A stretch of 64,000 bases of DNA from an uncultured Chloroflexia bacterium (GCA_963784695.1 CAWARZ010000002.1:891680-955679); one strand, 5' to 3'. Numbered from the stretch's first letter, positions 9,432-53,645 are shown. Numbers and translations are program-made. Notes: generated from the letters alone by a model not told the origin.

Positions 9432-12400
9432 TTACCTCCTCGGCCACACGCGCCGCCAGAGCGCGCCGCCGGCCAGCACCGCCGCGGCCAGGGCCGCGCC
9501 CGCGAGCACCCGGCCCGCGGATCCGCCGCCCGCCACGACATCGTCATCCGTCGCATCCGGCGCGCCTGAGCCATCGCGCAGGGCCAGATGCAGCACTTCG
9601 GCCAGGTGCAGCGCGCGCCGGTCGGTCGTCTGCGCGATCTGCTCGCGACAACTGAAGCCGTCGGCGATGATCAGCGCGTCGGGCGCCGCCTGGCGTACGG
9701 CGGGCAGCAGCACCCGCTCGCCCGCCTTGATCGAGACGTCGTAGTGTTCGCCACGCTCGAAGCCGAAGGCGCCGGCCATGCCGCAGCAGCCCGAGTCGAG
9801 CACGCGGTAGTCGAGGCCCATCGCGTCGAGTACGCGGGTCTCGTCGCGCATCGTCATGATCGCCTTGTGGTGGCAGTGGCCGTGAACCACCGCGGCGCGC
9901 GCCAGGTGCGGCGGCGTGTAGCCGTCGAGCCCGGTCAGGAACTCGCTGAGCAGGAACGCCTGGCCGCGGAGCCGCTTCGCGTCCTCGTCGTCAGGGAACA
10001 GGTTGGTGAGCTCGTCGCGGAAGACGGCCACGCAGCTGGGCTCCAGGCCGACGACCGGCGTACCGGCGCGGATCTCGTCGCGCAGCGTGTCGAGCACCTG
10101 GCGCAGCAGCCCGCGCGCCAGGCCGAGCATGCCCCAGTCGTAGAGCGGGCGGCCGCAGCAGAGCGACTGCCGCGGCACGATGACCTCGCAGCCCGCCGCC
10201 TCCAGCACCTCGACGGCCGCCCGGGCGGTCTCCGGGTGGAAGTGGTTGTTGAACGTGTCGGGCCAGAGGATCACCCGGCGGCCGCCTGCGGGCTTGCGGG
10301 GGCGCCGCTGGAACCAGGCCTGGAACGTCTGCGGGGCGAAGACGGGCAACCGACGCTGCGGCGCGATGCCGCCCGCGGCCTTCATCAGGGGGGCCAGCAG
10401 CGGCGCGTGCGTGACGAAGTTGACGACGCCGGGCGCGCGCGCGGCCAGCCGCGCCCACCAGTAGATCAGGCCCATGGTGTAGGCCGTGCGGGGGCGCAGG
10501 CGGCCCGCGTAGTAGTGGGCCAGGAACTCGGACTTGTAGGTCGCCATGTCGACGTCGACCGGGCAGTCGCCCTTGCAGCCTTTGCAGGCCAGACAGAGAT
10601 CGAGCGCCTCGCGCACCGGCTCGCTGCGCCAGCCGTCCGTCAGCGGCCCGCCCTCGAGCATCTCGAACAGGAGGCGGGCGCGGCCGCGCGTCGAGTGCTT
10701 CTCCTCGCGCGTGACCATGAAGCTGGGGCACATCGTCCCGCCGCCGAGCCGCCGGCACTTGCCGACGCCGACGCAGCGCAGCGTGGCGTGGGCGAAGCTG
10801 TGCTCGTCGGCGGGATATTGGAAGAAGGTGGTCACCGGGCGCGGGTTGTAGTCCGGGCCGAGGCGCAGGTTCTCGGTCGGCGCGTAGGGGTGCACGACCT
10901 TGCCCGGGTTCATGTGGTTGTCCGGATCCCAGATGGCCTTGAACTCGCCGAAGGCGCGCACGAGGTCGGGCCCGTACATCTTCGGCAGCAGCGCGCCCCG
11001 CGCCTGGCCGTCGCCGTGCTCGCCCGAGAGCGAGCCGCCGTAGCGCACGACCAGGTCGGCCGCCTCGTCGATGAACGCGGCGTAGTGGGCGATGCCCGCC
11101 GCGGTCACGAAGTCGAAATCGATGCGCAGGTGCACGCAGCCCTGGCCGAAGTGGCCGTAGAAGTCGCCCTCGTAGCCGTAGCGGTCGAGCAGCGCGCGCA
11201 GGTCGCGCAGGTAGGCGCTGAGCTTGGCGGGCGGGACGGCCGAGTCCTCCCAGCCGGGCCACGCATTCGGCTTGCCCGGCACCGCGTCGGTCGCGCCGAG
11301 CGCCGACTCGCGCACCTGCCAGACGCGCTGCTGCTGCGCCGGGTCGGCGTAGAGGCAGACCGCGGGCGCGGGGGCGGCCTGCCGCAGGGCGTCCTGCAGT
11401 GCGCGGGCCTTGCCGTCCGCCTCGTCCCGCGTCGCGCCGCCGAACTCGACCAGCAGCCAGGCCTGCCCGTCGGGCAGCAGCACCAGATCGTCGACGTGGA
11501 GCTGCTTCTTCTGCATGTCCTCGACCAGCCGGTGGTCGAAGCCCTCCAGGCCGATCGGCCCGTGCTCCAGGATCGCCGGCACGGCGTCGCAGGCGGCGTA
11601 GACGTCGGGGTAGCCGAGCACGGCCAGGCTGCGCACGGGCGGGCTGTCGACCAGGCGCAGTGTCGCTTCGAGCACGATCACGCAGGTGCTCTCGGTGCCG
11701 ACGAGGGCGCGGGCCACGTGGAAGCCGGCCTCGGGCAGCAGCTGGTCGAGGTTGTAGCCCGAGACGCGCCGCGGGATGTCGGGGAAGCGGGCGCGGATCT
11801 CGTCCGCGTAGCGGTCGCGCAGGTCGCGCAGGCGGGCGTAGATCGCCGCCGGGCGGCCGCCCGCGCGGATCGCCTGCTGCAAGCCGTCGTCGTCCAGCGC
11901 GCCCACGCGCAGGCGCAGGCCGTCGTAGGTCAAGATCTCCAGCGACTCGACGTTGTCGACCGTCTTGCCCGCCATGACCGAGTGGACGCCGCAGGAGTTG
12001 TTGCCGATCATGCCGCCAAGCGTGCAGTGATCGTGCGTGGCCGGGTCGGGCCCAAAGGTCAGGTGGTGCGCCTCGGCGGCGGCGCGCAGCGTATCGAGGA
12101 TGCAGCCCGGCTCGACGCGGGCGATCTTGCGCGCCGGGTCAATCTCGAGCACACGGTGCATGTACTTCGACATGTCGAGCACGACGGCGGCGTTGCAGCA
12201 CTGCCCGGCGAGGCTGGTGCCGCAGCCGCGGCCCAGGATGGGCGCGCCGAAGCGCCGGCAGACGGCCACCGCGGCCACCACGTCGTCGGCGTCGCGCGGC
12301 ACCACGACGCCGATCGGCACCTGGCGGTAGTTCGAGGCGTCGGTCGCGTAGAGCGCGCGGCTGCCGTCGTCGAAGCGCACCTCGCCGCGCACCCGCGCCC

Positions 12401-24476: not shown

Positions 24477-26321
24477 ATGCACGTAGTGCGTAACCTGGCC
24501 GGATCCCGCGTGGTGGGCCTCATCCTGCTGGCCCTGCTGGTGGTGCCCGTCGCGGGCCTGCCTGCCGCTCCGGCCGCTGCGGCGACCCAGGTGCCCGGCA
24601 ACTGGGAAAAAGGGTTCGTCATGATCGGCTACGCGGCGAACCCCTACAACCCGGCCAACGTCCCCGCCGCGCTCGCCAAGCTACACGACACGGGCGCCAA
24701 CATCGTCGCGCTCGCCCCGATCTGGTTCATGACCGACCCCAACGCCACGACGATGGCCCCCGTGCCCGCGCGCGGCACCCCCTCCGACGACTCGCTGGTC
24801 GCCGCGATCCAGGAGGCGCATCGCCAGGGCCTGCGCGTGATGCTGCGGCCCTATATCGACCTGGTCGACGGGAGCTGGCGTGCCCAGATCACGCCCAGCA
24901 ACCCCAGTGCCTGGTTCGCCAACTACCAGGCCTTCCTCGACCACTACCTTGACATCGCGAATAGCCAGGGGGTCGAGGAGTTCACGGTCGGCGTCGAGCT
25001 GATCAGCATGACCCAGCCGCAGTACGCGAATCAGTGGCGGGCGCTGATCGCCCACGTGCGCAGCCGCTACAACGGCACCCTCACCTACTCGGCCAACTGG
25101 GGCAAGCACACCGACAACGAATATAAGCAGATCACCTGGTGGGACGCGCTCGACTATATCGGTCTGTCGGCCTACTTCCCCCTCTCGCTGAACAACGTGC
25201 CCAGCGCCGACGCGCTCGTGCAGGGCTGGACGCACTACACCGACCAGGTCGGACAGACGTATGACTGGGTGAGCGAGATCAAGGCGACCGCCGACCAGTA
25301 CCACAAACCCGTCGTCTTCACCGAGATCGGCTTCGGCTCCTACGCGAACTCGCCCGCCCGCTGGGACGAGACCGCCGAGACGAATCAGCTGAGCCTGGCC
25401 ACCCAGGAGCACGCCGTGGCAGCCACCTTGCAGGTCTGGAGCCAGCAGCCCTGGTTCCACGGCGTCTTCTGGTGGCACTGGGAGCCCTACGTCGGCGCCG
25501 GAGGCGCGCAAGACCCCACCGACACGCTGAACAACAAGCCCGCCGTGGCCACGATCACGCAGTGGTTTGGCGGGGCGGCTCCTCCGCCCACCGCCGCGCC
25601 CACCCCACCGGCGGGGCCCACTCCGCCGCCGGCCACCCCGCCGCCGGGCCCGCCCCAGCAGCCGCCGTCGCAGCCCGTGCCACCTGGCCCGGTGCACCCG
25701 GCCCCCGCGCCCGGCAGCGCCGGGGTGAACAACGCGGCGTTCGCCGCCATGCCCTCGCCCGGCCCGGATACCGACTCGCAGGTCTACTTCCCGCAGACGG
25801 GCCACATCCTGCGCGCCGAGTTCCTGGCGTACTGGCGCAGCCACGGCGGTCTGGCGCAATTCGGCTATCCGATCTCCGAAGCCTACCAGGAGACGAACCC
25901 GACCGACGGCAAAGTCTACATCGTCCAGTACTTCGAGCGGCAGCGCTTCGAGTACCACCCCGAGCTCCCACCGGCCTTCCACGTGGAGCTCGGGCTGCTG
26001 GGCGTGGCCCTGGTGCACGGGCAGAGCAGCGGGCCGTACGCGACGGTGCCCTCGCCCGGCCCGGACACGGCCGACCGGGTATACTTCTCCCAGACCGGCC
26101 ACACCTTGAGCGGGGCCTTCCTGACCTACTGGCGCGGCCACGGCGGGCTGCCGATGTTCGGCTACCCGCTCAGCGAGCCGTTCTCCGAGGTCTCAAGCAC
26201 CGACCACAAGACGTACACCGTGCAGTATTTCGAGCGCGCGCGCTTCGAACTGCATCCGGAGAACAACCCGCCGTTCAACGTGCTGCTCGGCTTCCTCGGC
26301 CACTGGTACGCCGGCAAGTAG
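24477..26321 (+). CDS. Secreted TIM-barrel glycoside hydrolase (GH5/GH113-like) with a Pro-rich linker and C-terminal tandem LGFP repeats.
   Basis: Signal peptide. Catalytic-like VVFTEIGF. PPPTAAPTPP linker. Two approx 95-aa units, each with ...YW.SHGGLAQFGYPISEAY...DGKVY.VQYFERARFE.HPE (LGFP-type). Promoter TTGCGC-17-TATACT and RBS GAGAGGAG upstream. Confidence 0.75.
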   Translation: MHVVRNLAGSRVVGLILLALLVVPVAGLPAAPAAAATQVPGNWEKGFVMIGYAANPYNPANVPAALAKLHDTGANIVALAPIWFMTDPNATTMAPVPARGTPSDDSLVAAIQEAHRQGLRVMLRPYIDLVDGSWRAQITPSNPSAWFANYQAFLDHYLDIANSQGVEEFTVGVELISMTQPQYANQWRALIAHVRSRYNGTLTYSANWGKHTDNEYKQITWWDALDYIGLSAYFPLSLNNVPSADALVQGWTHYTDQVGQTYDWVSEIKATADQYHKPVVFTEIGFGSYANSPARWDETAETNQLSLATQEHAVAATLQVWSQQPWFHGVFWWHWEPYVGAGGAQDPTDTLNNKPAVATITQWFGGAAPPPTAAPTPPAGPTPPPATPPPGPPQQPPSQPVPPGPVHPAPAPGSAGVNNAAFAAMPSPGPDTDSQVYFPQTGHILRAEFLAYWRSHGGLAQFGYPISEAYQETNPTDGKVYIVQYFERQRFEYHPELPPAFHVELGLLGVALVHGQSSGPYATVPSPGPDTADRVYFSQTGHTLSGAFLTYWRGHGGLPMFGYPLSEPFSEVSSTDHKTYTVQYFERARFELHPENNPPFNVLLGFLGHWYAGK

Positions 26322-31738: not shown

Positions 31739-33332
31739 TCAGGGTGCGGCGTTCGGCTTGTAGACGTAGAGCACGTTGCGCTGGTCGAGGTGATAGGCGG
31801 CGCGCACGGCCGCCTGGATCCCGGGCGACATGCTCCCGGCCGCCTGGTCGGCTGTGCTCAGGTCGATGGGCGGCAGGATGATCAGCGCGAAGTAGTGTGC
31901 CCGGATCGCGGCAAGTAGCGCCGACTCGTCCCAGCGCCGGTACAGCGTGGCGTGCGTCTGCGTGTACGGGTCCGTCGTCCAGAGGCCGAGCTTGTACTTG
32001 TCGGTCACCAGCAACACGCTCAGATCGGTCGAGTAGACCGGCCCGGGCGTGTTGCTCGTGTACTGGGCGATGTTGCCCATCCCGTCGAGGACGGCCCCCG
32101 AGGGCAAGCGGAGCTCGTGGCCGAGCCAGTGCGGCGTGGCGTAGAGCGCGCCCACCTGCGTGCAGAGCACCAGCGCGACCAGCGCCGCCACCAGTTGCCC
32201 GGCGACCTGCCGCTGGCGTCGCACCAGCGCCGCGGCCAGGGCGAAGCCCAGGCAGACGGCGGCGGTCAGGTCGAGCAGGTGGTTGTGGTTGCCCCCCAGC
32301 GTGCCCGTGCCGATGGAGGTGATCAGGCTCATCCCCAGGTAGCCCGCGGCCAGCAGCCCGCCCGCCGGCGCGCCGAGCGTGTCGAGGCGCCCCGCGCGGC
32401 GCAGCAGCGCGCCGCCGCCCCCCGCGGCGCGCGCCAGCCCCCAGCCGTCGCGCAGCAGCCACCCGAGCACGCCGAGCACCCCCGGCACGACGATCAGCCA
32501 GTAGGCGCCCGCCCAGTCCGGTCAAGAAGCCCACGAAGCGGTCGGGCATCCAGGGCAGGTCGTGCAGCGTCGACTCGTGGTACAGATAGCCGCCGGAGGT
32601 CGCCCAGTCGAGCAGCAGCGTGCCGCCGAGCGCGCCGAGCGCGTAGATCCCCGCGAAGACGAGCCCCGGCCGCCAGGCGCGCAGGATCAGCCAGACCGTG
32701 ACGGCGACCCCCCCAGCGATCGCGGTCTGCTTGCTGTAGAAGGCGGCCCAGAACAGCGGGATCGCCGGCCAGACGGCGCTCAGGCGCGTCGACGGCCGGC
32801 CCAGCACCCACCAGAGCCCTCCCAGCCCGCAGGCCACCGCGAGCATGTCGGGTTTGACCAGCGCGCCCCAGAAGCCGACGATGCCCACGGCGCCCCAGGC
32901 CAGCACGCCGAGCGCCGCCGCGACGGCGTCGCGCGTCAGCCGCCAGGCGATCCCGGCGATCAGCGCCGCGACGGCGAGCGTCGCCACCATCGACAGCGCC
33001 CGCCCCGCCTTGAACGTCGCGCCGAGCACATGGATGGCCGGCCAGATCAGCAGGTAGTAGAGCGGCGGGTACGGCGCCGCGATGAACTGCTCCGGCGTGA
33101 GCTGCTTGTAGATGTCGACGCCGCGGTCCAGCAGCAGCGTCTCGGCGACGATCATGCTCTCGGACTCGTCGAACTGGAACGGCCAGGTCAGGAACGCGGC
33201 CATGGTCCGCGCGGTGTCGATCACCTTGAGCCCCAGCAGCACCCCTAGCGCCACCAGCGCGAGCAGCAGCAGCCGGCGCGGCCAGACGGAGGCGACGGCC
33301 GGCGCGGGCGCGACGGCGGTGGGCGTGCTCAT
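31739..33332 (-). CDS. Polytopic membrane protein, probable GT-C-fold glycosyltransferase (DUF2029/ArnT-like), with a +1 frameshift near 32510.
   Basis: At least 10 predicted TM helices. N-terminal frame 31380..33332 through ...DRFVGFLTG, then frame 31739..32488 (WAGAYWLIVVPGVLG... C-terminal soluble domain). Confidence 0.55.
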
Positions 33333-35610
33333 CGCAGCGTCACCGCGGCCACGCGCACCCCCAGAGCCCGCGGGTCGTAGCCGCCCGGCACAAACGGGTT
33401 CACGTCTAGCGTTATGTCAACCGCGTTGGCCCCGGTGGGGAGCCGCGCCAGCGTCGTCTCCTGCCAGGTGTCCCTCGCCGGCAGGCGCACGGTCGTCGCG
33501 ACCGGCGCGCCCGTGCCCGCCCGCACCACGGCCACCACCCGCGCCGCGGGCACACCCGCGGGACGCGCGCCGCTCCAGCGGATCACGACCGTCTGCCCCG
33601 GCGTGCTCGCAGTCAGGTGGATCGTCGCCACCGGCCCGCTCCACCGATAGGTGACCGCATCCGCCCCGCTCCCGGCCTGCTCGCTGGCGTAGAAGCCGTC
33701 GACCGCGCCGAAGTCGAGCCCACTGCCGATCGCCAGCACGGCTCCGATCGGCCGCGGCAGGAAGGTCGCGGCCCAGGACACGGCGTCCGGCCCGGCGACG
33801 TGCACCGGGCGCGCGCCGAACGTGCCGGCGGCCGCCGCCGGGTCGCCCCGGGCGCGCGCGATCGCCCCGCTGAGCAGGTAGGGCTCCATGCGCCCGAGCA
33901 GCGGGCTGTTGGGCGCCAGCGCGATCTCCGGCCGCGCGTCGAGCGCCGCCAGCGCCGCCGGGTCGGGCGCCGGCGCGTGCGTGATCTGCAGCAGCCGCGC
34001 GGCATCGGCGGCGAACTGCGTGGCGGGCAGCGCCTGGTCGGCCTGGGCCAGCAGGTCCAGGGCCCGCCCGGGATCCGTCCGGATCAGCGGCAGCGCGGCC
34101 CGGTAGGGTGCCTGCGCCGCCCAGCGCGCCGCGCCGTCGGCCGTTGGCCCGAAGGGGATGCTCGGCGCGACGACGCCGAGGAACAGCAGCCCCAGCAGCC
34201 CCAGGCCCAGCGGGCGCCACGCGGGACGGCCGAGCCGCGCGGTCGTGCCCCCGCGCGCCATGCGCCGCGCCGCCTGGGCCAGCGCGGCCACGCCGAGGGG
34301 CACCCACGGCAGCAGCAGCGCGATCACCGGGAACCGGAAGCGCGTCACGGCGAAGAAGACGAAGGCCATCGCCATCCACAGCAGCGTCCACAGGCCCAGC
34401 AGCGCCTTGAGCGGGTCCGGCGGGCCGAGCGCGAGCCCCGCGAGCGCACAGAGCGTGATCGCCACGTAGAGCAGGTCCTGGAAGATCAGCAGCGCCCAGA
34501 GGTGCGCCGCGGGCACGCGCCCCTCGGTGAAGCCGCCCACCTGCCGCTCCTCGGAGGTGAAGTTGATCCGCCAGAGGTCCAGGCTCTCCTTCAGCCCCTT
34601 GCCCAGGAAGGCGCCGGGGTCGGCCGCGATCTGGGTGAACGCCTGCGCGTAGGCGTAGCTCTGCCGGGCGCCCGGGTCGGGGATGGCGAGCAGGTCAGCC
34701 GCCAGCCGCTCGCCGTCGCGCACGCCGACGCTCGCCAGCCACAAGTTGTAGCCGCTGCTCGTGTCGCCCAGGATCAGCCGGTGGTACGTGACCGCGTTGT
34801 ACCCCATGAGCGGCACCTGGAACACGGCCACGCCGAGCAGCAGCAGCAGCGGCGCCCGCCACCAGCCGCGCCGCGGCGCCGCCATCCGGCGGTACACGAC
34901 CCAGCCGGCCCAGAGCGCCACGAGCGGCACGAAGGCCAGCGCGGTCGAACGGGTCAGGCCGGCGAGGCCCAGCAGCCCCCCGGCGACGAGCAGCAGCACG
35001 GCCGGCCGCGCGCGCGCCGACCCCGCGTCGGGCAGGTCGACCCAGCGCGCCAGCGCCACGAAGGCGCCGACGATCAACAGCAGGAAGAGCGTCTCGCTGA
35101 GCAGCAGATTGGCGAAGAGGGTAAACGGCAGCCAGACCGCGCCGATCGCCGCGGCGCCTCGCTCGGCGGCACGCCGGGACAGCCCGAGGCCGGGAGCGGC
35201 GCGCCGCCGCCCGCCCCGCCAGCCAGGCCAGCCCCCACAGAGTCACGCGTCGAGAGGACGGCCTGCGCGGCGAAGACGGGCGCCACCGCGCGGCCGGCGA
35301 GCAGGAAGAGGCCCGCCACGAAGAAGACGTAGGCGGGCACGCGCGTCCAGGGAAAGGTGGCGTAGAAGCTGAGGCCGCGCCCGTCGGCCAGCCCCGAGGC
35401 GGCGCCGTAGTACTCCGCCTCGTCGATGACGAAGCCGCTGACCGGCGTGCGCGGCGGCAGCCCGACCAGCGCGGGGTAGGCCAGCCGGATCAGCAGCGCC
35501 GCGGCCAAAATCGCCACGAGCAGCCAATCGACGCGCGTGCGCCAGGTCCCGATCACGCCGCACGCCGCGGGCCGGCCCCGCGCGCCGCCCGGCCGGGCGG
35601 CGATCCCCAC
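33329..35610 (-). CDS. ArnT/PMT-like GT-C glycosyltransferase (family 39/83-like). Two closely spaced +1 frameshifts near 35130..35260.
   Basis: The N-terminal piece 35074..35610 carries TM1 and the loop-1 DEAEYYGAASGL motif. The large piece 33329..35077 carries the remaining TMs and a C-terminal periplasmic domain. Confidence 0.7.
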
Positions 35611-35629: not shown

Positions 35630-37154
35630 TCACGCGAGCCCGCGCAGCTCCAGCGTGCTCACCTGCCCGGCCGGGTCGGTCAGATCCACGGTGCGGATCG
35701 CGTGGTTATTCGTGTCCGCGATGTAGAGGCGATCCGCGGCCACGCTGAGGCCCTCCGGCTCGTTGAAGCGCGCCTCCGCCGCCGGGCCGTCGGCGTCCCC
35801 GCGTGCCTCGCCGCCCAGCCAGGCGCTCACCGCGCGGCTCCGCGGGTCGAGCCGCTTGATCTTGCTGTTGTAAGTGTCGGCCACGTAGACCAGCCCGCCG
35901 TGCAGCGCGACGCCGAACGGGTGCTGGAGCCGCACCGTATCGCCGCGGCCGTCGCGGTCGCCAAAGTCGAACAGCCCCGTGCCGACCAGCGTGCGCAGCA
36001 CGCCGCTGCCGAGGGTCGTGCTGCGGATGGCCTGCGCCTCGCTGCAGGCGATCACGAGCTCCGTGCCGTCGGTTGCCAGGCCGCATGGCTGCGCCAGGTC
36101 GGAGTCGGCGAGCGATCCGTCGCGCAGTGCCTCGCGCCCGGTACCCGCCCAGGGCGCCACCGTGTCCGCCGCCGGGTCGTAGGCCCAGACCTGATGCCGC
36201 CCGGCCATCGCGATATAGAGTGTATCGCCGGTCCAGGCCAGGTCCCAGGGGGAGTTCAGGGGCGTGCGGCGCGCCGTGCCGCCCACCCGGGCGTAGCCCA
36301 GCCGCCCGGTACCCGCCACCGTGCTCACGGTCTGCGCGTCGAGGTCGAGCACACGCAGCAGGTGATTCTCGCTGTCGGCCACGTAGAGCCGGCGTGCCCA
36401 CCAGGGCCAGGCCCTGCGGGCGGTTGAACGTCGCCGCGGCGAAGGCGCCGTCGCCGGCGCCCTGCGCGCCGCTCCCGGCTACCCACGTCACCTCGGCCTG
36501 TGTGCCGTCCCCGCTCAGCCGCGCGCCGACGATGCGATGATGGTCGCTATCGGCGACGAAGAGGCGATCCGGCGCACCGTCCCGCCCGGCCAGCGCCAGC
36601 ACCTTGCCCGGGTAGCGCAGCGGCCGGGCGGGCGCGTCCAGCGCCTCGGGGTGCTCAGGCAGGGGCTGGGGCGCGATCCAGCCCCGCTCGCGGAAGCGCC
36701 CCAGCGCCTCCTCGATCACCGGCGCGAAGTCCTCGAAGGTGATCTCACCTGGCTGGCTGCCCATGTAGTAGCCGCGCGGGTCGACCAGCACGATGGTCGG
36801 CCAGGCGTTGACGGCGTAACCTTTCCAGACGCGGTAGAAGCGGTCGTTGACCACCGGGTGGTCGATCCCCAGGCGCATCACCGCGTCGCGCACGTTCGCG
36901 GTCACGCGCTCGGCCGTGTACTTGCCGGCATGCACGCCGATCACCGCCAGGTCGTCCGGGAAGCGCTGCTCGAGCTGTCGCAACTGCGGCAGAATATGGA
37001 TGCAGTTGATTCAGCCATACGTCCAGAAATCGAGCAGCACCAGCCGGCCGCGCAGGTCGGCCAGCCGGATCGGCTGGTGGTCGACCGTGTTCAGCCAATC
37101 CAGGCCGTCGGGAAAATCGGGCGCGCGGACCACGCTGTCGTACATGTCATGCAT
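35630..37154 (-). CDS. Thioredoxin-like plus NHL-repeat protein (NHLRC2 family). In-frame UGA at the first position of the CxxC motif, so a candidate selenoprotein; also a +1 frameshift near 36385.
   Basis: [47 protein letters not shown]-[TGA at 37011..37013][17 protein letters not shown]... (human NHLRC2 has CCINC here). Thioredoxin fold through EALGRF, then six NHL blades ([26 protein letters not shown]). RBS GAGGAC. Confidence 0.7.
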
Positions 37155-37368
37155 CAGGAAGTCCTCTCACTTCTCCGCATTATAGCAAACCGCGCGCGCG
37201 CGTCACAAGGCCGGGGCGCGCGCCCATCCCGTGACCTTTGGCGACAAGCGGGCGTTGTTCCACTACGAGACGGGCCGCGCCGCAATCCGGTGACTGCGGC
37301 ACCATGTATGCTCGATGAGACTCCCGACATCTCGACCGGCACCTGGACCGGCATCTGGAAAGGAATCA

Positions 37369-38303
37369 CGATGGCGCCTGCCTTTGCACATCGCACACGC
37401 TCTGCGGATCCTCGGCCTGCTGGCGCTCGCGGCGCTCAGCCTGTCGTTCGCCCCGGCCGGACTCGCCCAGGGTACTTCGCACTACTTCCCTGAGACCAAG
37501 CACACCGTCAGCGGCATCTTCTGGCAGTACTGGCAGAGCCACGGCGGCCTGGCCCAGCAGGGCTACCCGATCTCGGACGAGATCCAGGAGAAGTCCGACC
37601 TGGACGGCAAGGTCTACACGGTGCAGTACTTCGAGCGTGCGGTCTTTGAGCGCCACCCCGAGAACGCGGGCACCCCCTTCGAGGTGCTCCTGAGCCAAGC
37701 TCGGCACCACGCGCTACAAGGCCCGCTACCCGCAGGGCGCCCCCGGCCAGCACGCGAGCACCGACCAACCCGCGCTTCTTCCCCGAGACGAAGCACACCG
37801 TCGGCGGCGACTTCCGCACCTACTGGGAGGCGCACGGCGGGCTGGCCCAGCAGGGCTACCCCATCTCCGACGAGTTCCGCGAAGTGAGCCCGACCGACGG
37901 CAAATCCTACACCGTGCAATACTTCGAGCGCGCGGTCTTCGAGCGCCATCCCGAGAACGCCGGCACGCCCTTCGCGGTGCTCCTCTCGCAGCTGGGCACC
38001 TTCCAATACGCCGCGCGCCATCCCGCCGCGAAGCCGAGCCCCACCCCGGCCGCGGGCGTCGTCTTCGTCAAGGAGTTCGACTTCGACTTCGCGCCGAAGG
38101 TGATCACGATCCCGGTGGGCACCAAGGTCATCTGGACCAACGACGGCCCGACTGATCATACCGTCGCGGATCAGGACGTCAACTGGTCCTCCGACATCCT
38201 GCATGCCGGGGATTCCTACAGCCACGTCTTCACGCAGCGCGGCACCATCACCGTCATCTGCACCCTGCATCCCGAGATGGTTATGACGGTGATCGTGCAG
38301 TGA
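37369..38303 (+). CDS. Secreted protein with two LGFP-type repeat units plus a C-terminal cupredoxin (plastocyanin/pseudoazurin-like) domain. About three +1 frameshifts (near 37372, 37700 and 37790).
   Basis: RBS GGAAAGGA. Signal peptide LHIAHALRILGLLALAALSLSFAPAGLA. Repeats YFPETKHTVSGIFWQYWQSHGGLAQQGYPISDE...YTVQYFERAVFERHPEN, twice. Cupredoxin ligands H (PTDHTV), C..H..M (ICTLHPEMVM). Confidence 0.65.
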
Positions 38304-38398: not shown

Positions 38399-38992
38399 AT
38401 GAACGACGCGGCCCTGGTTGCAGGCTTACACGCGGGCGACCCCCGTGCGATCGAGCACGTCGTGCAGCACCACGCGCCGGCGCTCTATCGCTATGCCGTC
38501 TACCAGTTACGCGATCCCTGGCTCGCCGAGGACGTCGTGGCTGAGGTCATCGTGCGTATGATCCAGCGCGTCGACCGCTACGTCCTCGACTCGACGCCCT
38601 TCGAGGCCTGGCTCTTCCGCATCGCGCGCAACCTCGTGGCCGATCACTATCGCGCCCGCCAGCGGCGGCCGCAGGTCTCCTACGAGGAGTGGCTGGAGGC
38701 CGAACCCGGGGCGGAGCCGGGCGTGCGCGACGCCCGCATCGACATCCTGCCCGAGCGCGAGGCGCTGCGCGCGGGCCTGGCTGCCCTCACCGCCGAGCAG
38801 CGCGAGGTCATCTTGCTTCACGTCGTCTCCGGCTGGGACCTGCCCCAGGTCGCGCGCATGCTCAGCCGCAGTCTGCCCTCGACCAAGAGCCTCTACTACC
38901 GCGGCATGCAGACGCTGCGCCGCACCCTACCCACCTGGCATGGGAGCGACGTCGCCGTTGCGGGCCGCCGGAACGGGCATACCGATGGCTGA
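38399..38992 (+). CDS. ECF (sigma-70 group 4) RNA polymerase sigma factor.
   Basis: Region 2 (FEAWLFRIARNLVADHYR) and region 4 (LPQVARMLSRSLPSTKSLYYRGMQTLR). Confidence 0.85.
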   Translation: MNDAALVAGLHAGDPRAIEHVVQHHAPALYRYAVYQLRDPWLAEDVVAEVIVRMIQRVDRYVLDSTPFEAWLFRIARNLVADHYRARQRRPQVSYEEWLEAEPGAEPGVRDARIDILPEREALRAGLAALTAEQREVILLHVVSGWDLPQVARMLSRSLPSTKSLYYRGMQTLRRTLPTWHGSDVAVAGRRNGHTDG

Positions 38993-43294: not shown

Positions 43295-44762
43295 TCAGCC
43301 GGCCGCGGGCAGGGGCGGCGCCCCGAGCACCAGCCCGCTCCGCGCCGGCAGCGCCACCTCCAGGCCCTCGCCGGTCGCGGTCACGCTCCCCTCGCCCAGC
43401 AGCACCGGCCAGGCACCCTGGCCCTGCCGGTGGGCCGCCAGCGGCAGAGGAACATGGCGCCGCGCCCGCGCCGTATTCAAGAGGACCACCAGGTACTCGT
43501 CGTCCAACCCGCGCCCGAACGCGTAGACCCCGTCCGTTGCGTAGAGCGACTCGTAGCTGCCCGTGCGCAGGGCCGCGTGGCCGCGGCGCAGCGCAATCGC
43601 CTCGCGAAAGAACTGCAGCAGGTCCTGGTTCCACAGCCTGCGGGTCCCAGGGGAACGCGCGCCGCGAATCCGGGTCGCGCCGCCCCTCCAGGCCGATCTC
43701 GTCGCCGTAGTAGATCGACGGCGCGCCCGGGTAGGTCATCTGGAACAGCGTCGCCAGCTTGAGCGCCGTGACGTCGCCGCGCGCCATGGTCAAGAACCGC
43801 GCGGTATCGTGGCTGTCCAGCAGGTTGAGCTGCACCTCGGTCACTTCGCGCGGGTAGAGGTGCAACAGGTATTCAATGCTCGCGGCGAAGTCGGATCCGT
43901 CGAGCGGGTGCGTCGGATCCCAGCCCTGGTTGCGCACCAGCGCGCGCTCCAGGTGACTGCCGACCGTGAAGGCGATAGTACGCTCGGCGAAGAGGTAGTT
44001 CATCACCGCGTCGAACTCGTCGCCCTGCAGCCAGTGGCGCGCGTCGCCCCAGATCTCGCCCACGATATAGGCCTCAGGATTGGCGCCCTTCACGCGCGCC
44101 CGGAACTCCTGCCAGAAGCTGTCGTCGGCGATCTCGCCCGGCACGTCGAGCCGCCAGCCGTCGATGCCCTCGCGCACCCAATACTCGCCGACGCCCAGCA
44201 GGAACTCGCGCACCGCGGGATTGCCGATGTTGAACTTCGGCAGCCCGTGCAGGCCCCACCAGGCCTGGTAGCCCGGCGGCCGGTGCTCGTCGTAGGCGTT
44301 CGCCGGGAACTGCGTGAAGTGAAACCAGTCGACGTAGGGCGACGCCGGGCCGTTCTCCAGCGTGTGATTGAACTGGTAGAAACCGCGGCTGGCGTGATTG
44401 AACACCCCGTCGAGCACCACGCGGATATTCCGCGCGTGGCAGGCGTCGAGCATGGTGCGGAACGCCGGGTTCCCGCCCAGCAGCGGGTCGACCTGCATAT
44501 AATCGTACGTGTGGTAGCGGTGATTCGCGGTCGAGGCGAAGACCGGCGTGAAATAGATCGCCGTGATGCCCAGATCCACGAGGTAGTCGAGGTGCTCGGT
44601 CACGCCGAGCAGGTCGCCGCCCTTGAATCCATATGTGGTGGGCGGCGCGGCCCAGGGTTCCAGGTTTCCGGGTTTCGGCACCGCCGCCGACGAGGCGAAG
44701 CGGTCGGGAAAAATCTGATAGAACACCGCATCACGGACCCATGCGGGCGTGTGAATACTCAA
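43295..44762 (-). CDS. GH13 alpha-amylase-family enzyme (neopullulanase/alpha-glucosidase-like), with a frameshift near 43600..43650.
   Basis: GH13 regions I-IV ([27 protein letters not shown]). The C-terminal beta-domain is in frame 43295..43507. TTG start with RBS GGAGGA. Confidence 0.8.
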
Positions 44763-51634: not shown

Positions 51635-51710
<76 letters not shown>

Positions 51711-51833
51711 GTGTGGACCTGTCGCGATACACCTAATTGGTGCATTTCATTATACGGCACCGCCACAGGTGTGTCAAGCGATCGGAGGCACCGGCCCGGC
51801 CCCCGCGGGGGCGCCGGGCGGGCCTCCCGCCGC

Positions 51834-51998
51834 CTACTTGGTCTCGCGATGCAAACGGTGTTCGCGGCAGCGCGGGCAGAACTTCTGCAGCTCCATGCGC
51901 GCCGGGTCGTTCCGTTTGTTCTTCGTGCTGGTGTAGTTGCGCTCCTTGCATTCGCTGCAGGCCAGCGTAATCAAGATGCGATCGGCTTTCTTGGCCAT
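51834..51998 (-). CDS. rpmG: 50S ribosomal protein L33.
   Basis: [54 protein letters not shown] (54 aa). Confidence 0.9.
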
Positions 51999-52068
51999 CT
52001 TTCGTTTACCTCGTTACTGCGGAGCCGGAGGCCGCGGCGATCGCTACGGTCCCCGGCGCCAGTCCATG

Positions 52069-53268
<1,200 letters not shown>

Positions 53269-53395
53269 GCTGCTTGCTCTCCTTTGATACTGGCATCCAA
53301 CGGCGGCCGGCGGGTGGTGAGGCCGCGGCCAGGCCGGGTACGAAGCAAAGCCCCGAGCTATCAGGAGATAGCTGGGGCCTGCTAGCTTGCGACGG

Positions 53396-53468
53396 AGCCC
53401 ACGACCAGACTTGAACTGGTGACCCCGTTCTTACCAAGAACGTGCTCTACCAACTGAGCTACGTGGGC
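53396..53468 (-). tRNA. tRNA-Thr (anticodon GGT).
   Basis: GCCCACG acceptor, anticodon loop TTGGTAA. Confidence 0.9.
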
Positions 53469-53473
53469 CCGGG

Positions 53474-53557
53474 TGGGCAGGGAAGGATTCGAACCTCCGT
53501 AGGCATTACGCCGACTGGTTTACAGCCAGTTCCGATTGGCCACTCCGGCACCTGCCC
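53474..53557 (-). tRNA. tRNA-Tyr (anticodon GTA), long variable arm.
   Basis: GGGCAGG acceptor, anticodon loop CTGTAAA, extended V-arm. Confidence 0.9.
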
Positions 53558-53572
53558 GAGCTATGACGAGGG

Positions 53573-53645
53573 AGCCGACGGTGGGACTCGAACCCGCAAC
53601 CACCTGTTTACAAAACAGGAGCTCTGCCAATTGAGCTACGTCGGC
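53573..53645 (-). tRNA. tRNA-Thr (anticodon TGT).
   Basis: GCCGACG acceptor, anticodon loop TTTGTAA. Confidence 0.9.

What the first reader, a model, noticed from the sequence alone, without database searches (positions are those of the whole stretch)
35630..37154. In-frame UGA at the first position of the thioredoxin CxxC motif: candidate NHLRC2-like selenoprotein
The minus-strand gene encodes a thioredoxin fold followed by six NHL repeats. At complement(37011..37013) the frame reads ...[23 protein letters not shown]..., so the stop sits exactly where the nucleophilic Cys of the C-x-x-C redox motif is expected; the eukaryotic homolog has CCINC. Upstream and downstream codon usage is equally coding-like, and a good RBS/ATG precedes it. 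Errors elsewhere in this contig are +1 insertions, not substitutions, so a Cys-to-stop miscall is less likely than genuine Sec recoding (U-x-x-C).
Basis: partly seen in the sequence, partly recalled or inferred. Interest (0 to 1): 0.7.

Follow-up and report, generated by a model that had tools for sequence, protein, structure and literature searches.

The report
Unannotated thioredoxin–NHL selenoprotein gene
The in-frame UGA is real and almost certainly encodes selenocysteine at the active site of a bacterial relative of human NHLRC2 and plant SOQ1, a selenoprotein family that public gene calls consistently cut in two.

Summary
TGA lies at complement(37011..37013), at the second Cys of the CCINC motif of a Trx-like + NHL protein homologous to SOQ1 (E=1e-106) and NHLRC2 (E=1e-100). 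It is not a base-call error. The same TGA is found in 5 other Chloroflexia-clade sequences (4 independent) and in 34 of 80 species-representative genomes; 45 have TGC or TGT. Both sides of the codon are under purifying selection (dN/dS 0.05-0.34). A 7-bp hairpin with an invariant AGUU loop lies 18 nt after the UGA in the Sec forms only. It is 97.9% paired with 4 covarying pairs, against 37.5% in the Cys forms, and it meets the published bacterial SECIS geometry. Synonymous variation collapses at exactly those codons. UGA is the normal stop in this window (9 of 9 genes checked).

Caveats: the window copy has a +1 frameshift near 36391, probably an assembly artefact because at least 5 syntenic genes are frameshifted. 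Its hairpin has one C.A mismatch (-5.9 kcal/mol). selA/B/C/D could not be searched genome-wide. One carrier, Dehalococcoidia UBA1141, is a published selenoprotein-rich organism.

All 134 closest database proteins are truncated at the Sec codon, and I found no paper naming an NHL-domain selenoprotein. The kind is known; the family appears undescribed.

The parts
37179..37208 (-). Promoter-like site: TTGTGA, 18-nt spacer, TATAAT with an extended TG
   Evidence: 10 of 12 matches; 0.1 sites expected by chance in this 71% GC region. It lies 25 nt upstream of the ATG. This is a consensus match only.
37162..37168 (-). Shine-Dalgarno-like GAGAGGA, 7 nt before the ATG
   Evidence: Read directly from the sequence.
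37014..37154 (-). CDS part 1: 47 codons from the ATG to the codon before Sec (N-terminal part of the Trx-like domain, ending ...LLDFWTYG)
   Evidence: Gene callers report the same 47-aa ORF upstream in L001-L005. dN/dS is 0.05-0.32 against relatives.
37011..37013 (-). In-frame UGA, inferred selenocysteine codon, first position of U-I-N-C (second Cys of CCINC in SOQ1/NHLRC2)
   Evidence: position; conserved TGA versus TGC/TGT in homologues; alignment to SOQ1.
36975..36992 (-). Candidate bacterial SECIS hairpin CUGCCGC-AGUU-GCGACAG (loop at 36982..36985). The window copy has a C.A mismatch, with A at 36978 where relatives have G
   Evidence: 97.9% paired, 4 covarying pairs, RNAalifold predicts the same structure; Cys forms 37.5% paired; synonymous entropy collapses at codons +7..+11; -5.9 kcal/mol here against -12.6 to -13.6 in the four closest relatives; published bSECIS criteria.
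35630..37010 (-). CDS part 2: rest of the Trx-like domain, linker and NHL beta-propeller, ending at the genuine TGA stop at 35630..35632. Read in two frames because of the indel below
36389..36392 (-). +1 insertion (one extra C or G in ACGCCGGC) that shifts the frame. Probably an assembly error
   Evidence: removing one base restores [12 protein letters not shown], matching relatives' G[DT][TV]LYVAD; frame -3 to -1 here, with similar frame changes in at least 4 other syntenic genes.

Best explanation
The gene at complement(35630..37154) encodes a cytoplasmic-type, short (about 507 aa) member of the SOQ1/NHLRC2 family. It has a TlpA/DipZ-like thioredoxin domain followed by an NHL beta-propeller. 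The first redox residue of its C-x-x-C centre is selenocysteine (G-U-I-N-C). Translation starts at the ATG at 37154. At the UGA 47 codons later, a SelB.GTP.Sec-tRNA(Sec) complex is recruited by a 7-bp hairpin with an AGUU loop that begins 18 nt downstream (loop 25 nt after the UGA), inside the codons for L-P-Q-L-R-Q. Sec is inserted and translation continues to the genuine TGA stop at 35630. The selenolate then acts as the attacking nucleophile of a selenenylsulfide/dithiol-type redox centre, which lies in the cleft between the Trx domain and the propeller. Shown here: the conserved UGA/Cys pairing, coding constraint on both sides, and the covarying hairpin specific to the UGA forms. Inferred: SelB/tRNA-Sec dependence, actual Se incorporation, and the chemistry and substrate. 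The mid-gene frameshift in this copy is most likely a sequencing or assembly artefact.
For: UGA is conserved at the same codon in 5 other Chloroflexia-clade sequences, 4 of them independent, and in 34 of 80 species-representative loci from Chloroflexia, Dehalococcoidia, Ardenticatenia, Thermomicrobia, Dormibacterota, Ca. Fervidibacter and NC10. 45 loci have TGC/TGT. dN/dS is 0.05-0.32 upstream and 0.14-0.34 downstream of the UGA. Gene callers choose many different start codons after the UGA, so there is no conserved internal start. The hairpin at alignment columns 22-28/33-39 is 97.9% paired, has 4 pairs with double changes, and no shuffle (0 of 500) reached the observed values; slid registers give 31-74%. 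RNAalifold predicts the same structure on its own. The same columns in the 45 Cys forms are 37.5% paired, which is chance level. Synonymous entropy at codons +7..+11 is 0.28/0.19/0/0/0.51 in Sec forms against 1.24/1.38/1.00/2.03/0.98 in Cys forms, and similar elsewhere. The geometry fits the published bSECIS model: 4-nt loop, G then U in loop positions 2-3, 7-bp stem, 25-nt spacing, and -9.3 to -14.0 kcal/mol in most members folded. L061 keeps the stem through CCG>CCC plus CGG>GGG even though the latter costs an Arg>Gly change. UGA is the ordinary stop here: 9 of 9 genes checked, including this gene and EF-Tu. One carrier of the TGA form, Dehalococcoidia bacterium UBA1141 (L049), is listed with 49 selenoprotein genes in BSepDB (PMC13326102). 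A promoter-like site and an RBS-like motif lie before the upstream ATG.
Against: No selA, selD, true selB or tRNA-Sec is present in the window or in any +-10 kb flank, and the rest of the genome could not be searched. The window's own hairpin has a C.A mismatch and folds at only -5.9 kcal/mol, above the -7.5 cut-off of the published model. L038 (-5.7) and L073 (-6.5) are similarly weak. This copy also carries a frameshift. There is no proteomic or 75Se evidence. The sequences in the covariation test are related, so the shuffle control is not a probability; the argument rests more on the Cys-form control and on synonymous sites.
Confidence: 0.85

Rival explanations
1. The family is a genuine selenoprotein, but this particular copy is a decaying pseudogene: the frameshift near 36391 and the G>A change in the hairpin are both real.
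For: Frameshift inside the gene. Hairpin weakened to -5.9 kcal/mol by a change not seen in the four closest relatives.
Against: At least four other syntenic genes in the same window (amylase, cupredoxin-like gene, 729-aa gene, PMT_2) are also frameshifted, which points to assembly error, not decay of this gene. Apart from the single indel the sequence shows the same low dN/dS as its relatives. CGA is a synonymous Arg codon, and two other family members have similarly weak hairpins.
Confidence: 0.1
2. The UGA is read through without selenium. The hairpin stimulates near-cognate insertion (Trp or Cys), or UGA has been reassigned in these lineages.
For: Downstream hairpins can promote read-through. 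Se incorporation was not measured, and the Sec machinery was not located in this genome.
Against: UGA terminates 9 of 9 genes checked in the window, and 13 of 39 of the family's own genes, so there is no reassignment. The UGA sits precisely on the catalytic Cys of a CxxC centre and alternates only with Cys codons in homologues, the signature of Sec/Cys pairs. The hairpin matches the SelB-type bSECIS consensus, including G-U in the loop. One carrier is a documented Sec user.
Confidence: 0.03
3. It is a split gene: a 47-aa peptide and a separately initiated ~460-aa protein, or simply a truncated protein that lacks the first part of the Trx fold, as public annotations imply.
For: All 134 closest database entries are annotated this way.
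Against: The annotated starts are inconsistent (TTG, ATG or GTG at 1-15 or more residues after the UGA). The split would separate U from x-x-C and remove beta1 and the active-site loop of the Trx fold. Both pieces stay in one frame with an invariant TGA and similar dN/dS across lineages whose synonymous sites are near saturation. Cys-form homologues are single polypeptides.
Confidence: 0.02
4. The TGA is a sequencing error for TGC or TGT in this contig.
For: The contig is error-prone.
Against: The same TGA is present in 39 other loci held here (35 distinct sequences) from many laboratories and technologies. The contig's visible errors are indels, not substitutions.
Confidence: 0.005

Closest known systems
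Plant SOQ1 lumenal Trx-like/NHL region (PDB 7DJJ) and human NHLRC2 (PDB 6GC1)
   Same: Full-length homology (E=1e-106 and 1e-100). Same order of TlpA/DipZ-like Trx domain then NHL propeller. Same active-site context, DFWTY-C-C-I-N-C-x-H. In NHLRC2 the motif lies at the N-terminus of helix alpha1, in the cleft facing the propeller (PMC6107167).
   Different: The second Cys of CCINC is UGA (Sec) here, and the first is Gly in this clade (G-U-I-N-C). The protein has no transmembrane or HAD part and no C-terminal domain. The SOQ1 CTD carries the Cys pair that receives electrons from the Trx domain and is tied to the reported Msr activity (bioRxiv 10.1101/2024.11.01.621559). 39 of 40 Sec forms lack it.
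[quoted passage not shown]
   Same: Sec replaces the N-terminal Cys of CxxC in a thioredoxin fold. Cys homologues are abundant. The SECIS hairpin lies just downstream within the coding sequence.
   Different: None of the listed families is described with an NHL propeller, and the word NHL does not occur in that review or in five other selenoproteome papers.
E. coli fdhF-type bacterial SECIS / published bSECIS consensus
   Same: A hairpin inside the ORF shortly after the UGA, a small apical loop with G followed by U, and spacing within 16-37 nt.
   Different: The loop is a tetraloop, AGUU, invariant across the main Sec clade. No bulged U except in L060. Rfam has no matching model. The independently derived NC10 form uses a different hairpin, CCAGAGC-UGGAC-GCUCUGG.
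M. tuberculosis DipZ C-terminal Trx domain (PDB 2HYX), ResA and TlpA
   Same: Closest stand-alone Trx-domain relatives (E=3e-27 for DipZ, about 1e-7 for ResA/TlpA). DipZ has S-C-I-N-C.
   Different: Those are extracytoplasmic reductants with Cys and no propeller. This protein has no signal peptide (read from the sequence) and carries Sec.

Membership tests
Bacterial selenoprotein (UGA decoded as Sec through a bSECIS) | In-frame UGA conserved among orthologues and aligned with Cys in other homologues | tested here: met
   TGA in 40 loci held here (35-36 distinct sequences), TGC/TGT in 45, all at the same column.
Bacterial selenoprotein (UGA decoded as Sec through a bSECIS) | Protein-coding constraint on both sides of the UGA in one frame | tested here: met
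   dN/dS 0.05-0.32 upstream and 0.14-0.34 downstream; both sides align to one domain of SOQ1/NHLRC2.
Bacterial selenoprotein (UGA decoded as Sec through a bSECIS) | bSECIS geometry: 3-9 nt apical loop, 4-16 bp upper stem, G in the first two loop positions, 16-37 nt between UGA and loop (PMC13188914) | tested here: met
   7-bp stem, loop AGUU, 25 nt between UGA and loop; covarying; absent from Cys forms.
Bacterial selenoprotein (UGA decoded as Sec through a bSECIS) | bSECIS minimum free energy <= -7.5 kcal/mol | tested here: inconclusive
   11 of 14 family members folded reach -9.3 to -14.0. The window copy reaches only -5.9 (C.A mismatch); L038 (-5.7) and L073 (-6.5) are also above the cut-off.
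Bacterial selenoprotein (UGA decoded as Sec through a bSECIS) | selA, selB, selD and tRNA-Sec in the same genome | not testable with these tools
Indirect: the L049 carrier UBA1141 is listed as a Sec user with 49 selenoprotein genes (PMC13326102).
Bacterial selenoprotein (UGA decoded as Sec through a bSECIS) | Selenium demonstrated in the protein | not testable with these tools
   Needs 75Se labelling or mass spectrometry.
SOQ1/NHLRC2 family | N-terminal TlpA/DipZ-like Trx domain followed by an NHL beta-propeller, homologous over the full length | tested here: met
   Thioredoxin_8, NHL; 7DJJ residues 5-514, 6GC1 residues 56-570.
SOQ1/NHLRC2 family | C-C-(I/V)-N-C motif at the CxxC position | tested here: met
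   G-U-I-N-C here and C-U-(I/V/M)-N-C in most Sec forms; Sec takes the place of the second Cys.
SOQ1/NHLRC2 family | C-terminal beta-stranded domain with a conserved Cys pair (present in SOQ1, NHLRC2 and most bacterial Cys forms) | tested here: not met
   459 residues after Sec here, and 444-477 in 39 of 40 Sec forms. 41 of 45 Cys forms have 573-635 residues, including a Cys pair. Short bacterial forms are acknowledged as the common bacterial architecture in PMC6107167.
NCBIfam NF041054 ResA-like WAxxUGC selenoprotein | Score above the curated cut-off and a WAxxUGC motif | tested here: not met
   19.2 bits against a cut-off of 300; the motif here is WTYGUINC.
Peroxiredoxin / 'alkyl hydroperoxide reductase' (the name given by database sources) | PxxxTxxC peroxidatic motif and closest relatives that are peroxiredoxins | tested here: not met
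   There is no Pro at -7 (L-D-F-W-T-Y-G-U). The PDB relatives are DipZ, ResA, TlpA and StoA, with no peroxiredoxin among 41 hits. The AhpC-TSA Pfam hit (35 bits) is a fold-level match.
[quoted passage not shown] | Homology to the representative sequences MGB1650493.1 and HEU0032618.1 | not testable with these tools
   The representative sequences cannot be fetched. The Pfam Redoxin hit is below its cut-off (20.0 against 26.6 bits).

The most novel reading that the evidence does not exclude
This is a selenoprotein family that has not been recognised as such: Sec forms of SOQ1/NHLRC2. Sec arose at least twice, at the second Cys of CCINC, and both times in lineages that lack the C-terminal redox domain. 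This suggests that the selenolate in the Trx-propeller cleft has taken over direct catalysis (for example methionine-sulfoxide or peroxide reduction) that long Cys forms delegate to the CTD. It would also mark the equivalent Cys (Cys90 of human NHLRC2) as the catalytic nucleophile of a protein whose biochemical function is still unknown.
Probability: 0.25. Interest if true: 0.65.

Novelty: new member of a known kind. Interest (0 to 1): 0.5.

Why it matters
First, annotation. Every one of the 134 closest database proteins is cut at the Sec codon and named 'alkyl hydroperoxide reductase', 'YncE', 'YvrE' or 'hypothetical'. NCBIfam has no model for the family, so a widespread Chloroflexota/SAR202 selenoprotein is being missed.

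Second, function. Sec/Cys pairs are an established marker of catalytic redox cysteines (general knowledge of the field). [quoted passage not shown] A 2024 preprint finds SOQ1's Trx domain to be redox-active (10.1101/2024.11.01.621559). A natural Sec at the second Cys of CCINC is independent evolutionary evidence that this centre is catalytic, and it says which residue attacks. This is directly testable with recombinant Sec and Cys variants and bears on FINCA disease biology.

Third, the family offers a clean natural experiment for bSECIS evolution: a hairpin written into the codons L/F-P-Q-L-R-K/Q, an independent second solution in NC10, and matched Cys controls.

Tried and rejected
(1) The MFE fold of the 77 nt after the UGA gave a stem CAACUGC/GCAGUUG with a z-score near 0. 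On the alignment it is 98.7% paired but shows no covariation, and its 5' arm is the N-C codons, which are equally conserved in the Cys forms. I rejected it in favour of the 22-28/33-39 hairpin.

(2) Rfam at gathering threshold on the whole window, and at E<=10 on 36900-37060, found only tRNAs and noise. Rfam has no suitable bacterial SECIS model.

(3) ARAGORN, and tblastn with E. coli SelA/SelB/SelD, on the window and all loci: the only hits were EF-Tu in the window and one weak SelB-like hit in L063, and no tRNA-Sec was found.

(4) An exact look-up of the window's EF-Tu, to identify the genome, found nothing on record.

(5) A look-up of full-length U-containing products, to see whether NCBI annotates any: the tool refuses U.

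(6) The NCBIfam scan gave no family-specific model.

(7) Literature searches for NHL, NHLRC2 or SOQ1 together with selenoprotein or selenocysteine found nothing relevant. The BSepDB supplements are not held.

(8) Global UGA reassignment is rejected.

(9) I did not run structure prediction, because sequence homology to solved structures is already decisive.

Full report
THE OBSERVATION. The minus-strand frame that opens with the ATG at window 37154 reads [47 protein letters not shown], then TGA at 37013..37011, then [17 protein letters not shown].... With Cys placed at the stop and one base removed (see below), the 507-aa product matches Pfam Thioredoxin_8 (residues 36-129), AhpC-TSA and NHL repeats. 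It aligns end to end with the lumenal Trx-like/NHL region of Arabidopsis SOQ1 (7DJJ, E=1.4e-106) and with human NHLRC2 (6GC1, E=1.3e-100). Its Trx domain alone matches M. tuberculosis DipZ (2HYX, 2.8e-27) and, more weakly, ResA and TlpA. In the SOQ1 alignment, [15 protein letters not shown] lies over ldfwtyCCincmhvlP, so the stop falls on the second Cys of CCINC, the first residue of the CxxC centre. A promoter-like site (TTGTGA-18-TATAAT, 10 of 12 matches, 0.1 sites expected by chance) and a GAGAGGA 7 nt before the ATG precede the upstream piece.

NOT AN ERROR AND NOT A NONSENSE MUTATION. The 14 closest database proteins (66-72% identity) all cover only 77-90% of the query and begin just after the stop position, at differing start codons. 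The DNA of five such contigs, four of them independent, shows a 47-codon ORF, then TGA at the identical codon, then the rest of the gene in the same frame. Flanking synonymous sites differ between the contigs. In one genome per species (GTDB representatives), 34 of the 80 best loci carry TGA at this column, 45 carry TGC or TGT, and one lacked the motif. The TGA carriers are labelled Chloroflexia, Dehalococcoidia (many complete chromosomes), Ardenticatenia, Thermomicrobia, Dormibacterota, Ca. Fervidibacter and NC10. Among the window and its four closest distinct relatives, dN/dS is 0.05-0.32 for the 47 upstream codons and 0.14-0.34 for the 130 codons downstream, with dS of roughly 0.5-1.3. Both pieces are therefore maintained as coding sequence. 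UGA has not been reassigned: all nine genes checked in the window, including EF-Tu and this gene itself, end in TGA (GC 71%).

THE RECODING SIGNAL. The single-sequence fold was uninformative (z-score near 0), and the stem it proposed shows no covariation. The alignment of 34 distinct TGA forms shows something else. Columns 22-28 pair with columns 33-39 around an invariant AGUU loop. 97.9% of cells are paired and four of seven pairs show changes on both sides: U-A/C-G/U-G at 22-39, U-A/G-C/C-G at 24-37, C-G/G-U at 25-36, and G-C/C-G at 27-34. No shuffle (0 of 500) reached the observed values, and slid registers give 31-74% pairing. RNAalifold predicts the same helix independently. The same columns in the 45 Cys forms are 37.5% paired, indistinguishable from their shuffles.

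At the codon level, the Sec forms fix CCG-CAG-TTG-CGG (P-Q-L-R). Synonymous entropy is 0.19, 0, 0 and 0.51 there, while other Leu, Pro and Arg codons in the same genes, and the homologous codons of the Cys forms (which read P-D-L-K), vary freely at 1.0-2.0. In L061 the stem is kept by CCG>CCC together with CGG>GGG, although the second change costs an Arg>Gly replacement.

The element fits the published bacterial SECIS model: a loop of 3-9 nt, a stem of 4-16 bp, G in the first two loop positions usually followed by G or U, 16-37 nt between UGA and loop, and MFE <= -7.5 kcal/mol (PMC13188914). Here the loop is A-G-U-U, the stem has 7 bp, the spacing is 25 nt, and 11 of the 14 members folded reach -9.3 to -14.0 kcal/mol. 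Because the aligned sequences are related, the shuffle control is not a probability. The weight of the argument lies in the Cys-form control, the localised loss of synonymous variation, and the independent prediction.

TWO ORIGINS. A neighbour-joining tree of the region after the Sec/Cys codon puts all TGA forms in one clade, with one exception. L017 (NC10) nests among the Cys forms and has a different hairpin at nearly the same distance, CCAGAGC-UGGAC-GCUCUGG at -12.6 kcal/mol. That is what an independent Cys-to-Sec conversion would look like. The tree is a quick NJ tree without support values, so this point is suggestive only.

SEC MACHINERY. No tRNA-Sec, SelA, SelD or true SelB is encoded in the window or in any flank; the only SelB-like hits are EF-Tu at 52069-53268 in the window and one weak match in L063. 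This says nothing about the rest of the genome, which I could not search. Indirectly, locus L049 is from Dehalococcoidia bacterium UBA1141, which BSepDB lists among the ten most selenoprotein-rich bacteria, with 49 selenoprotein genes (PMC13326102). An invariant UGA, a SECIS-type hairpin and an intact frame persisting across lineages with near-saturated synonymous sites are hard to explain without Sec decoding.

THE WINDOW'S OWN COPY. The window is syntenic with the Chloroflexia MAG locus L001. The shared order is ECF sigma factor, cupredoxin, Trx-NHL, a 729-aa protein with no Pfam match, and a PMT_2 glycosyltransferase. At least five of about twelve shared genes change frame mid-gene in the window, so the contig is indel-prone. 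Removing one C or G at 36389-36392 restores ...[14 protein letters not shown]..., which matches relatives' G[DT][TV]LYVAD. The frameshift is therefore most likely an artefact. Separately, the hairpin reads CUGCCGC-AGUU-GCGACAG. The A at 36978 (a synonymous CGA where relatives have CGG) makes a C.A mismatch and lowers stability to -5.9 kcal/mol, against -12.6 to -13.6 in the four closest relatives. L038 and L073 are similarly weak. I put about 10% on this copy being a real pseudogene.

MECHANISM AND FUNCTION. Shown: the Sec/Cys pairing at the first position of U-x-x-C in a TlpA/DipZ-like Trx fold. In NHLRC2 this motif lies at the N-terminus of helix alpha1, in the cleft against the propeller (PMC6107167). 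Inferred: SelB-dependent Sec insertion, and a selenolate nucleophile that forms a selenenylsulfide with the Cys three residues on. The substrate is unknown.

Two published facts frame the question. [quoted passage not shown] SOQ1's Trx-like domain has since been reported to be redox-active, passing electrons to its C-terminal domain, with the lumenal region showing methionine sulfoxide reductase activity (bioRxiv 10.1101/2024.11.01.621559).

In my data, 39 of 40 Sec forms, including the independently derived L017, lack that C-terminal domain, whereas 41 of 45 Cys forms have it with a conserved Cys pair. This amounts to only about two independent events, so it is weak statistically. It does suggest that in the short forms the Sec centre acts directly on whatever binds in the cleft.

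COMPARISON WITH WHAT IS KNOWN. The kind is well known: a bacterial Trx-fold U-x-x-C selenoprotein with Cys homologues and an intragenic SECIS. The specific family does not appear to be described. 'NHL' does not occur in the 2006, 2008 and 2016 comparative papers, the 2005 Sargasso Sea paper, the deep-Sep paper, the BSepDB paper, or the 2026 inventory of 119 families. No paper in the library combines NHLRC2 or SOQ1 with selenocysteine. NCBIfam has no model for the family. All 134 nearest database proteins (14 and 120) are truncated at the Sec codon, none has U or X, and their names include 'alkyl hydroperoxide reductase' and 'YncE'. [quoted passage not shown] I could not fetch their representative sequences, so I rate the novelty as a new member of a known kind and not more.

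VERDICT. Confidence is 0.85 that this gene encodes a Sec-containing SOQ1/NHLRC2-type protein decoded through the hairpin at 36975-36992. Interest is 0.5. This is unsurprising to selenoproteome specialists. It is still a systematic annotation gap, and it gives a useful evolutionary pointer to the catalytic residue of a disease-linked protein family whose biochemistry is unresolved.

Noticed in passing
window ~43635-43696, ~37743-37791, ~36389-36392, ~35197-35236, ~32535-32560: At least five genes syntenic with the Chloroflexia MAG locus L001 change reading frame mid-gene: alpha-amylase, cupredoxin-like protein, Trx-NHL, the 729-aa protein and the PMT_2 glycosyltransferase. The contig looks indel-prone, so any ORF-based reading of this window needs frameshift-aware tools.
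   Followed up: partly
L017:10142 (NC10 bacterium CSP1-5, LDXR01000013.1): This TGA form nests among Cys forms in the tree. It uses a different hairpin (CCAGAGC-UGGAC-GCUCUGG, -12.6 kcal/mol) at nearly the same distance from the UGA, which looks like an independent Cys-to-Sec conversion in the same family.
   Followed up: partly
all loci L001-L085: 39 of 40 Sec forms lack the ~130-aa C-terminal domain, while 41 of 45 Cys forms carry it with a conserved Cys pair. The one long Sec form is L010 (Ardenticatenia). The short Cys forms are L009, L022, L071 and L084.
   Followed up: partly
window 37315-38303 (+) and 38399-38992 (+); also 25740-26300 (+): A cupredoxin/plastocyanin-type copper protein (frameshifted in the window) and an ECF sigma factor are transcribed divergently from the selenoprotein gene. 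The same arrangement is seen in L001 and L002. A second cupredoxin-like copy lies near 25.7-26.3 kb. TlpA-type thioredoxins are known to serve copper-protein maturation, but no link was tested here.
   Followed up: no
window 33329-35610 (-); L001:11355-13544: In four independent relatives, the gene immediately downstream of the selenoprotein gene encodes a ~730-750-aa protein with no Pfam match. It overlaps the Trx-NHL gene by 14-47 nt in three of them and lies 4 nt downstream in the fourth (L004). A PMT_2-type glycosyltransferase follows it in L001 and the window. This is possibly an operon; the function is unknown.
   Followed up: partly
L020:~9940-10115 and L050 (Ca. Fervidibacter): The open frame upstream of the Sec codon is longer in these loci (about 134 codons) and includes a hydrophobic stretch (…AIITMILISVGMML…). 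This is a possible membrane anchor, unlike the window's protein, which starts 47 codons before Sec with no hydrophobic leader.
   Followed up: no
window 51635-53645 (-): The classic tRNA-Thr / tRNA-Tyr / tRNA-Thr - tuf (EF-Tu, 52069-53268) - tRNA-Trp cluster is present. This EF-Tu protein has no exact match in the public gene-position index, so the source genome is apparently not in that collection.
   Followed up: partly
database proteins P0001-P0014 and P0121-P0240: All 134 nearest public protein records for the Sec clade, including SAR202 and other Dehalococcoidia on multi-Mb contigs, are N-terminally truncated at or just after the Sec codon. They are named alkyl hydroperoxide reductase, YncE, YvrE or hypothetical protein.
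   Followed up: yes
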